Source: Escherichia coli (GTDB lineage Bacteria; Pseudomonadota; Gammaproteobacteria; Enterobacterales; Enterobacteriaceae). Taken from it: a stretch of 64,000 nucleotides of DNA. Location of the stretch: the NCBI RefSeq assembly GCF_030013205.1, contig NZ_CP122648.1. One strand, given 5' to 3'. Every line of letters begins with the position of its first letter. The stretch's first letter is position 1. The translations under genes and the position numbers were made by a program. Shown piece after piece: positions 93 through 545 of the stretch. The notes under the pieces were generated by a model. That model had not been told where the DNA came from, made no database searches, and saw nothing but the letters and a program-made list of their open reading frames with translations.

Positions 93-545
93 TGACAGTC
101 ACGGCAGCGGAATCGATCATGTCCTTTTGGGTTCTTCCCGTGACGGTAAACCTGAACGGACTGGCAACGGGGGCAATGAAGGTTAACAGTGACCATGAAG
201 GAACCTTAAAAGCGAGTATTATACCACTCATTCAACTAATTGGAGGCATTACCCATCCCTTTTAACACGATCTTTTCCATATAAAACAGGAATAAGTTGC
301 TCCATGTTGTAATTTTTATATTTTTCATGCAAAAACAACTCCCTGCTTTCTTTTCGTCTTTTATTCACATCAATAATTTTCATATCAACTATCTCATTTT
401 CTTTGCTATCTTATCTTTTGAATGGCGTGAATGCTTGCCCCCCATGCTTTCATTGTGCTTTTTGCCTCTAACGGTGAATATTTACCTTGTGAAATTAATT
501 CCTCAAGCATCTCACATCTGCTCTAGTAAAGAAATAGTTCATATT

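What the first reader, a model, noticed from the sequence alone, without database searches (positions are those of the whole stretch)
99..545. About 450 bp of AT-rich sequence with no convincing ORF between immunity candidate 2 and the second H-rpt end
This region is very AT-rich and low-complexity and differs from the sequence flanking the other H-rpt copy. It could be a degraded further cassette, a promoter region for the adjacent IS, or a small-RNA locus; the only track ORF (297..551, plus strand) is low-complexity and unconvincing.
Basis: seen in the sequence. Interest (0 to 1): 0.25.

Follow-up and report, generated by a model that had tools for sequence, protein, structure and literature searches.

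The report
Decayed toxin-immunity remnant plus IS1 scar
The stretch holds no working gene or RNA: it is the tail of an old Rhs toxin gene and the head of its immunity gene, cut off by a broken IS1 element that abuts the H-rpt element, which is ordinary genomic debris at the end of an Rhs locus.

Summary
The window is the RhsC-type locus (next to ybgA-phrB) of a porcine ETEC-like E. coli. All features read on the minus strand.

- **1..92:** left end of the truncated H-rpt/ISAs1 'ybfD' copy.
- **93..253:** 161 bp of the left end of an IS1. It carries the terminal inverted repeat and the first 34 complete codons of InsA (Pfam Zn_ribbon_InsA, E=7e-22). This part is 48% GC, so it is not AT-rich.
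- **254..383:** the first 43 codons of a yibA-like HEAT-repeat immunity gene. The IS1 end supplies the stop codon, so the 44-aa 'hypothetical protein' that PGAP annotates here is a chimeric artefact.
- **389..522:** the last ~44 codons of an Ntox34-type Rhs toxin tip, the type carried by K-12 RhsA. It is frameshifted at a G6 tract (438..443).

In E. albertii and Escherichia sp. E4742 the same sequence continues into a roughly 285-codon yibA homologue that runs up to ybgA. That homologue is broken in every copy seen.

I found no support for a promoter or a small RNA. This is an ordinary remnant of known families, and interest is low.

The parts
1..92 (-). Left (transposase-proximal) end of the truncated H-rpt / ISAs1-family 'ybfD' copy. 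The rest of the element lies to the left of the window.
   Evidence: blastn of the ybfD copy against the full copy (window 3205..4497) is 95.7% identical up to window 92. The same end is found at K-12 H-rpt copies, matching window 92..3 at 95.6%. AST215 shares the identical end.
93..253 (-). IS1 left-end remnant, 161 of about 768 bp. It comprises the terminal inverted repeat GGTAATGCCTCCAATTAG (253->236), the insA start at 196, and the first 34 complete codons of InsA. The H-rpt end cuts it at 92/93.
   Evidence: The ORF 74..196(-) hits Pfam PF03811 Zn_ribbon_InsA at E=6.7e-22, 77.4 bits. It is 91% identical to the left end of a complete IS1 in STEC388. PGAP calls it 'IS1 family transposase, incomplete'. 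Homology to E. albertii stops exactly at 254.
254..383 (-). First 43 codons of a yibA-like HEAT-repeat (Imm-HEAT) immunity gene, truncated by the IS1 insertion. The PGAP 44-aa 'hypothetical protein' WP_001389504.1 (249..383) consists of these codons, one codon spanning the junction, and a TAA stop inside the IS1 inverted repeat.
   Evidence: Relatives continue past the junction: P0002 (69 aa) and P0003 (56 aa). The E. albertii, E4742 and metagenome loci run on into HEAT_2 ORFs. The conceptual full-length protein matches PDB 1OYZ YibA at E=1.2e-49 (residues 8-274 against 6-272) and NCBIfam NF007244 at 284.8 bits, above the cut-off of 275. The real ORF P0023 against K-12 YibA gives E=5e-54. P0002 against YibA residues 6-55 gives E=1e-4.
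389..522 (-). Last ~44 codons of an Ntox34-type Rhs toxin tip, including its stop. It is out of frame in this window because of a G6 tract. The literal ORF is the 34-aa ORF 406..510(-).
   Evidence: tblastn of the K-12 RhsA C-terminus gives 54% identity over 28 aa, E=2.8e-7, and the homology continues in the next frame after the G-run. The frame-corrected peptide hits PF15606 Ntox34 at 26.4 bits, above the cut-off of 25, over HMM positions 42-80 of 80. A search of 1.84 billion representatives returns C-termini P0016-P0022, E=1.5e-5 to 8.6e-4; the six scanned (all but P0019) carry Ntox34. A gapless alignment is 53-56% identical through to the stop. The corrected frame exists as real ORFs in L008 and P0005.
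438..443 (-). Poly-G tract (C6 on the plus strand) inside the toxin-tail remnant, and the site of the frameshift. Its length varies among relatives: 6, 7, 8 or 12.
   Evidence: Alignment of the window, AST215, E. albertii L003-L007 and metagenome L008.
523..545 (-). Junction of 23 bp between the stop of the 149-aa DUF3887-like immunity gene and the start of the Ntox34-tail homology. It contains an in-frame TAG at 525..523.
   Evidence: Read directly from the sequence. There is no similarity to RhsA upstream of 'SRCE'.
546..995 (-). Context: 149-aa DUF3887-like putative immunity gene of the outermost orphan cassette.
   Evidence: PF13026, E=5.9e-5, below the curated cut-off.
999..1520 (-). Context: orphan Rhs toxin tip. 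The same tip sits on the full-length 1408-aa Rhs of E. albertii.
   Evidence: 96% identity to the C-terminus of the L003 Rhs protein, E=6e-123.

Best explanation
The interval is non-functional debris left by three successive events at the outer end of an RhsC-type locus.

1. An ancestral rhs gene here ended in an Ntox34 toxin tip followed by its HEAT-repeat immunity gene, the same pair as rhsA-yibA in E. coli K-12.
2. A new toxin tip and its 149-aa immunity gene recombined in and replaced almost all of the old tip. Only its last ~44 codons and the now unneeded yibA-like gene remained, and the latter began to decay by homopolymer frameshifts.
3. In the E. coli lineage of this window, an IS1 landed in codon 44 of the yibA-like gene. 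The IS1 interior and about 850 bp of host DNA were then lost where the H-rpt element now abuts it.

Shown: the identity and boundaries of each piece, and the collinear, longer (but also broken) versions in E. albertii and Escherichia sp. E4742.

Inferred: the order of events, and that nothing here is expressed to any purpose.
For: **IS1 piece**
- Pfam InsA zinc ribbon, E=7e-22.
- 91% identity to a complete IS1 left end.

**Toxin tail**
- Pfam Ntox34 above its gathering score for the frame-corrected peptide.
- tblastn against the K-12 RhsA tail, E=3e-7, with continuation after the G-run in the shifted frame.
- An unbiased search of 1.84e9 proteins returns protein C-termini P0016-P0022; the six scanned carry Ntox34.

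**Immunity head**
- Relatives extend the 43 codons into a protein collinear with YibA: PDB 1OYZ E=1e-49, NF007244 284.8 bits against a cut-off of 275, and P0023 E=5e-54.

**Synteny**
- The toxin stop is followed within about 10 bp by the immunity start, comparable to K-12 rhsA-yibA where the gap is 20 bp.
- Window 1027..254 is 95.8% identical to E. albertii and E4742. Homology resumes next to ybgA, so about 848 bp are replaced by the IS1 fragment plus H-rpt.

**Decay**
- The gene is broken in every copy seen.
- G-tract lengths are 6, 7, 8 and 12.
- Across the 43 codons there are 6 nonsynonymous against 1 synonymous codon differences between the window and L008.

**Literature**
- The RhsA C-terminal region is toxic and yibA neutralises it (Vlazny & Hill 1995, as cited in PMC3150448).
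- Ntox34 is paired with Imm-HEAT and RHS repeats (PMC3482391).
Against: - The window's own 43-codon head is only weakly similar to K-12 YibA when taken alone (tblastn E=0.02). Its assignment rests on the collinear extension in relatives.
- The Ntox34 hit needs a one-base frame correction. It is only just above the gathering score, at 26.4 against 25 bits.
- The representative search also returned SHOCT-like repeat proteins (P0006 and P0008), so part of the helical motif is generic.
- The remnant is 95-98% identical between E. coli and E. albertii, while the ybgA flank is 91.5% identical. This fits recent horizontal transfer of the cassette, but it does not by itself exclude constraint.
- No expression data were available.
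Confidence: 0.9

Rival explanations
1. The two short minus-strand ORFs (34 aa at 406..510 and 44 aa at 249..383) are genuine small genes, for example a micro-toxin/antitoxin pair or a truncated but still protective immunity fragment.
For: PGAP annotates the 44-aa ORF as a protein. That exact sequence is seen on 230 contigs. The N-terminal 24-26 residues of the 34-aa ORF are conserved among relatives.
Against: - The 44-aa ORF ends in a stop codon supplied by the IS1 inverted repeat. In relatives without IS1 it reads on into a YibA homologue.
- The C-terminus of the 34-aa ORF changes frame with the G-tract length.
- Neither ORF has a family hit of its own.
- 43 residues cover about one of YibA's many HEAT repeats.
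Confidence: 0.03
2. The AT-rich stretch is a regulatory or small-RNA locus: a promoter for the adjacent IS or H-rpt, or a 3'-UTR-derived sRNA of the immunity gene.
For: It is AT-rich, lies directly 3' of the immunity gene, and is conserved at 95-98% across three Escherichia species.
Against: - No Rfam match at E<=1.
- One promoter-like site against 3.9 expected, located in the IS1 part, and no terminator-like site.
- Folding energies are not different from shuffles, with z of -0.37 and -1.15.
- The conservation is fully explained by shared descent of coding remnants.
- An IS1 fragment separates the stretch from the H-rpt.
Confidence: 0.04
3. The similarity of 389..522 to Ntox34 is a chance match of a generic helical (SHOCT-like) motif, and the stretch is just the native 5' leader of the yibA-like gene.
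For: Several top hits in the representative search are SHOCT-like repeat proteins. The Pfam score is only 1.4 bits above the cut-off.
Against: - The match runs gaplessly at 53-56% identity to the very C-terminus of authentic Ntox34 proteins, including the KAWG.HSR.SKDK tail and the stop position.
- It sits exactly where the toxin 3' end sits relative to yibA in K-12.
- The SHOCT hits cover only residues ~5-34 and come from multi-repeat proteins.
Confidence: 0.03

Closest known systems
E. coli K-12 rhsA-yibA (Ntox34 toxin tip with its HEAT-repeat immunity protein YibA, PDB 1OYZ)
   Same: - The same two families in the same order and spacing: the toxin stop, then the immunity start within about 10-20 bp.
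- The tail peptide is 53% identical to RhsA's last 44 residues.
- The reconstructed immunity protein is collinear with YibA end to end.
   Different: - Here only the last ~44 toxin codons (frameshifted) and the first 43 immunity codons survive.
- Conserved Ntox34 cysteines are lost: Cys to Gln, and WGC to WGG.
- The location is the RhsC-type locus next to ybgA, not the rhsA site.
- The lineage is roughly 40% identical to K-12 YibA.
Rhs/CDI orphan toxin-immunity modules (Poole et al. 2011, PMC3150448)
   Same: A displaced toxin-tip/immunity pair left downstream of the currently used one, in an array that also carries IS elements.
   Different: Typical orphans keep a piece of the rhs core and a whole toxin tip. 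This remnant has no core sequence and only the extreme 3' end of the tip, which implies replacement rather than displacement of the old tip.
IS1 (InsA/InsB) insertion sequence
   Same: Terminal inverted repeat and InsA zinc-ribbon N-terminus, 91% identical to a complete IS1 iso-form.
   Different: Only 161 bp remain, with no insB and no right end. It is fused to an H-rpt end.
H-rpt / ISAs1-family elements of Rhs loci (ybfD, ybfL in K-12)
   Same: Same element and same position next to ybgA as K-12 ybfD.
   Different: K-12's RhsC distal region lacks everything in window 93..545.

Membership tests
Ntox34 (Pfam PF15606) Rhs toxin tip | Match to the family HMM at or above the gathering score | tested here: met
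   The frame-corrected 44-aa peptide scores 26.4 bits against a cut-off of 25, E=7.9e-6, over HMM positions 42-80 of 80. The literal 34-aa ORF gives no hit.
Ntox34 (Pfam PF15606) Rhs toxin tip | Complete domain (80 HMM positions) in one open frame, fused to an Rhs core | tested here: not met
   Only the C-terminal half is present. There is a TAG at 525..523 immediately upstream and a frameshift at the G6 tract 438..443. No core sequence adjoins it.
Ntox34 (Pfam PF15606) Rhs toxin tip | Conserved residues listed by Zhang et al. 2012 for this half (C, C, K, WxCxH) | tested here: not met
   The first Cys, Lys, Trp and His are kept. The second Cys position is Gln; it is Cys in two of the five authentic tails aligned and Ser or Glu in the other three. 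The Cys of WxCxH is Gly (motif from PMC3482391).
Ntox34 (Pfam PF15606) Rhs toxin tip | Followed directly by an Imm-HEAT gene | tested here: met
   The corrected stop is at 391..389 and the yibA-like ATG at 383..381. The pairing is described in PMC3482391.
YibA / Imm-HEAT (NCBIfam NF007244, PDB 1OYZ) | Sequence match of the window's own 43 codons | tested here: inconclusive
   tblastn of YibA residues 6-40 against the window gives 31% identity, E=0.02. There is no Pfam hit for the 44-aa ORF.
YibA / Imm-HEAT (NCBIfam NF007244, PDB 1OYZ) | The orthologous sequence in relatives is a full-length YibA homologue | tested here: met
   - Conceptual 288-aa protein: 1OYZ E=1.2e-49.
- NF007244 284.8 bits against a cut-off of 275.
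- Real ORFs: P0023 E=5e-54 and P0002 E=1e-4 against K-12 YibA.
YibA / Imm-HEAT (NCBIfam NF007244, PDB 1OYZ) | Intact open reading frame able to give a folded HEAT-repeat protein | tested here: not met
   It is cut at codon 44 by IS1 in the window. It is frameshifted or stopped in L003-L008 and L011.
IS1 | Terminal inverted repeat and InsA zinc ribbon | tested here: met
   PF03811 E=6.7e-22. The IRL aligns to a complete IS1.
IS1 | Complete element (both ends, insA-insB) | tested here: not met
   Only 161 bp are present, and there is a single IS1-like match in the whole window.
Classical Rhs orphan module | Retained rhs core fragment with the PxxxxDPxGL boundary upstream of the toxin tip | tested here: not met
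   The remnant begins 23 bp after the preceding immunity gene's stop, with no core homology.
Known small RNA / cis-regulatory RNA (Rfam 15) | Covariance-model match | tested here: not met
   No match at E<=1 in window 1..2000.

The most novel reading that the evidence does not exclude
The hypervariable poly-G tract (6, 7, 8 or 12 G in different strains), together with the unusually high conservation of the remnant across E. coli, E. albertii and Escherichia sp. E4742, could mean the toxin-tail/immunity-head stretch has been co-opted. It might act as a slippage-controlled 3' element affecting stability or read-through of the upstream immunity transcript, or as a phase-variable micro-ORF. My evidence does not exclude this, but nothing points to it.
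Probability: 0.02. Interest if true: 0.35.

Novelty: already known. Interest (0 to 1): 0.1.

Why it matters
There are three modest consequences.

1. The widely propagated RefSeq 'hypothetical protein' WP_001389504.1 is an annotation artefact: 43 codons of a yibA-like gene plus a stop codon from an IS1 inverted repeat.
2. The RhsC-type locus of Escherichia once carried the Ntox34/YibA pair now known from rhsA. A toxin tip can be replaced almost completely, leaving only its last codons, rather than being displaced as a classical orphan with a core fragment.
3. It gives a dated layering of events (tip replacement, then decay, then IS1, then loss of DNA at the H-rpt) that could help in typing these loci.

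No new biology is implied.

Tried and rejected
- **Family scans of the literal ORFs.** Pfam and NCBIfam scans of the 34-aa, 44-aa and 84-aa ORFs found nothing. The signal appeared only after following the ORFs into relatives and correcting one frameshift.
- **Rfam.** A permissive threshold on window 1..2000 gave nothing.
- **Promoter and terminator scan.** Fewer promoter-like sites than in shuffles, and no terminator.
- **RNA folding of both strands.** Not different from shuffles.
- **DNA-level search of 256..545 in 5,426 complete E. coli genomes.** Only 18 genomes matched, all with the same cassette, so E. coli alone could not identify it.
- **DNA comparison with K-12 rhsA-yibA.** No significant nucleotide match to 254..545; the homology is visible only at protein level.
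- **K-12 RhsC distal region.** Shares only the H-rpt end.
- **IS1 extending to 265.** I considered this because of megablast hits reaching 265. I rejected it because the extra bases align only with gaps, and the E. albertii homology begins at 254.
- **One long gene.** I considered that the 34-aa ORF and the yibA-like ORF were one gene. I rejected it because all three frames are closed between them.
- **Large scans not run.** I did not use the genome contigs or metagenome-contig scans. The answer did not need them.

Full report
**Origin and setting.** The first 1000 bases of the window are 100% identical to a group of porcine ETEC / O139:H1 E. coli chromosomes such as K_EC180. In that record the window starts 54 bp beyond the annotated start of a truncated ISAs1-family 'ybfD' gene, next to ybgA-phrB. 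To the right it carries a DUF3887-like gene, an orphan Rhs toxin tip, a second orphan, a full H-rpt and the main rhs gene. This is an RhsC-type locus, and all its genes read on the window's minus strand.

**Checking the observation.** The interval is not uniform.
- Window 254..545 is 32.9% GC against a window mean of 51.3%. That places it in the lowest 1.9% of 292-bp windows. Its 4-mer complexity is in the lowest 1.3%.
- Window 93..253 is 47.8% GC.
The ybfD copy aligns with the full copy (window 3205..4497) at 95.7% up to that base. K-12 H-rpt copies and strain AST215 share the same end.
- No intact gene lies in 99..545.

**Piece 1: IS1 remnant, 93..253.**
- The minus-strand ORF 74..196 begins MVTVNLHCPRCQSVQVYRHGKNPKGHDRFRCRDCH and hits Pfam Zn_ribbon_InsA at E=6.7e-22.
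- The DNA is 91% identical to the left end of a complete IS1 in strain STEC388, starting from the inverted repeat GGTAATGCCTCCAATTAG at 253->236.
- The fragment is cut at InsA codon 35 (34 complete codons remain), where the H-rpt end begins.
- PGAP also calls it an incomplete IS1 transposase.
- It is the only IS1-like sequence in the window.

**Piece 2: head of a yibA-like immunity gene, 254..383.**
- PGAP annotates a 44-aa hypothetical protein at 249..383(-). Reading the sequence shows that its stop codon, and part of its last sense codon, lie inside the IS1 inverted repeat (...GAT GGG TAA TGC CTC C).
- A protein search found longer versions that read past this point: P0002 (69 aa, metagenome) and P0003 (56 aa, E. 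albertii).
- Their contigs show the same 149-aa gene followed by the same sequence. It continues for about 850 bp into ORFs with HEAT_2 hits, right up to ybgA.
- Escherichia sp. E4742 has the same arrangement with a 232-235-aa HEAT ORF.
- A multiple alignment places the end of shared sequence at window 254. blastn confirms this: window 1027..254 is 95.8% identical to E. albertii and E4742. Homology resumes 899 bp to the left of the window start, close to ybgA. About 848 bp of the relatives' sequence is therefore replaced here by the IS1 fragment plus H-rpt.
- A conceptual protein joined from the relatives' fragments matches E. coli YibA (PDB 1OYZ) at E=1.2e-49 over residues 8-274 against 6-272. 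It also passes NCBIfam NF007244, the YibA equivalog, at 284.8 bits against a cut-off of 275.
- Un-edited ORFs give the same answer. P0023 against K-12 YibA gives E=5e-54. P0002, which contains the window's 43 codons, aligns to YibA residues 6-55 at E=1e-4.
- Taken alone, the window's fragment is only weakly similar (E=0.02), so its identity rests on this collinear extension.

**Piece 3: tail of an Ntox34 toxin tip, 389..522.**
- In K-12, yibA follows rhsA by 20 bp. I therefore asked whether the sequence upstream of the yibA-like start is the end of an RhsA-type tip.
- tblastn of the last 250 residues of RhsA against window 240..620 aligned DRCDVLQELIDCGDISAKDAKSTQKAWN with SRCEMLEELISQGKYSPLEAKSTMKAWG (54% identity, E=2.8e-7). 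A second segment, CRHSRQSNDK against GKHSRHSKDK, aligned in the next frame.
- The frame break is a poly-G tract at 438..443. The tract has 6 G here and in AST215, 7 in metagenome L008, 8 in most E. albertii and 12 in one.
- Adding one G gives SRCEMLEELISQGKYSPLEAKSTMKAWGGKHSRHSKDKIAKKMR*. This frame exists as real ORFs in L008 and in P0005.
- The corrected peptide hits Pfam Ntox34 above its gathering score (26.4 against 25 bits, HMM positions 42-80 of 80). The K-12 RhsA tip is itself Ntox34 at E=1.7e-43.
- As an unbiased test I searched 1.84 billion representative proteins. Besides copies of the remnant itself, the search returned P0016-P0022 at E=1.5e-5 to 8.6e-4. All but P0019 match at their extreme C-terminus, and those six, when scanned, carry Ntox34.
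- A gapless alignment is 53-56% identical through to the stop.
- The same search also returned SHOCT-like repeat proteins, so part of the motif is generic. Those hits lack the KAWG.HSR.SKDK tail and the synteny.
- Two cysteine positions are changed in the remnant. The second Cys (Cys in two of the five authentic tails aligned) is Gln, and the Cys of WxCxH, conserved in all five, is Gly.

**Junction, 523..545.** Only 23 bp separate the stop of the 149-aa gene from the start of the Ntox34-tail homology, and an in-frame TAG lies at 525..523.

**Interpretation.**
- Zhang et al. list Ntox34 as an RHS-associated toxin whose immunity partner is Imm-HEAT (PMC3482391).
- Poole et al. summarise Vlazny & Hill 1995: the C-terminal region of RhsA is toxic, and the downstream ORF yibA neutralises it (PMC3150448).
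- The stretch is thus the residue of such a pair.
- In E. albertii the toxin tip found in the window as the outermost orphan (96% identical) sits on the full-length Rhs. It is followed by the 149-aa gene and then this same residue.
- The simplest history is as follows. An ancestral Ntox34/yibA-like end of the locus was overwritten by the new tip and immunity cassette, with the right-hand crossover inside the last ~130 bp of the old tip. The orphaned yibA-like gene then decayed. It is broken in every copy seen, mostly at homopolymers. Between the window and L008 the 43 codons differ at 6 nonsynonymous and 1 synonymous codon. Finally, in this E. coli lineage, IS1 inserted, and sequence was lost between IS1 and the H-rpt.
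- The order of these events is inferred, not shown.

**Other readings.**
- Rfam gives nothing.
- Promoter-like sites are fewer than in shuffles and there is no terminator-like site.
- Neither strand folds better than shuffles.
- The plus-strand 84-aa ORF is antisense to the remnants, has no family hit, and is broken in E. albertii and E4742.

**Distribution.** The 290 bp at 256..545 occur in 18 of 5,426 complete E. coli genomes. K-12's RhsC distal region has none of window 93..545.

**Verdict.** The 'degraded cassette' option is correct and is now specified by family. The remaining options have no support. This is ordinary decay at an Rhs locus and is of low interest. The one practical point is that a RefSeq hypothetical protein here is a chimeric artefact.

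Noticed in passing
L016 2046..3275 (NZ_CP080235 and three other strains, hits H1-H4), corresponding to window ~546..995: In four otherwise identical strains a complete IS1 (with programmed frameshift) sits inside the 149-aa DUF3887-like immunity gene. This suggests the outermost orphan pair is dispensable.
   Followed up: partly
L002 5001..5770 (E. coli AST215), corresponding to window ~93..242: AST215 keeps only 11 nt of the IS1 inverted repeat and the same H-rpt end. Between them it has a roughly 700-bp IS256-family transposase fragment instead of the IS1 interior. This is a third IS layered at the same spot.
   Followed up: partly
window 438..443; L003 ~5883; L005; L008: The poly-G tract length is polymorphic among strains (6, 7, 8 or 12 G). 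It is probably neutral slippage in a pseudogene.
   Followed up: yes
L003 6460..6490 and the same place in L004-L008, L011: A TGATTG hexanucleotide repeat (Cys-Asp dipeptides) inside the yibA-like pseudogene varies in copy number between E. albertii strains, and is a single copy in L008 and E4742.
   Followed up: no
L012-L014 7001..7867 (E. fergusonii-type contigs): An intact 288-aa YibA homologue (P0024, 56% identical to the reconstructed protein) stands alone just after nikR with no rhs gene beside it. From memory, the region after nikR is where rhsB lies in K-12; I did not verify this here. It may be a free-standing immunity gene.
   Followed up: no
window 3205..4497 and 4500..4628: The full-length H-rpt copy is annotated with an internal stop, so it is a pseudogene. 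It is followed by an IS630-family fragment, adding to the IS debris between the orphans and the main rhs gene.
   Followed up: no
window 999..1520 (-): The orphan toxin tip has no Pfam or NCBIfam match. In E. albertii it is carried on the full-length 1408-aa Rhs protein. Its activity is unknown.
   Followed up: partly
Representative search, (P0004, P0006-P0009): The short toxin-tail peptide also matches SHOCT-like and other helical repeat proteins, with many stretches per protein. This is a caution when searching with peptides of this kind.
   Followed up: partly
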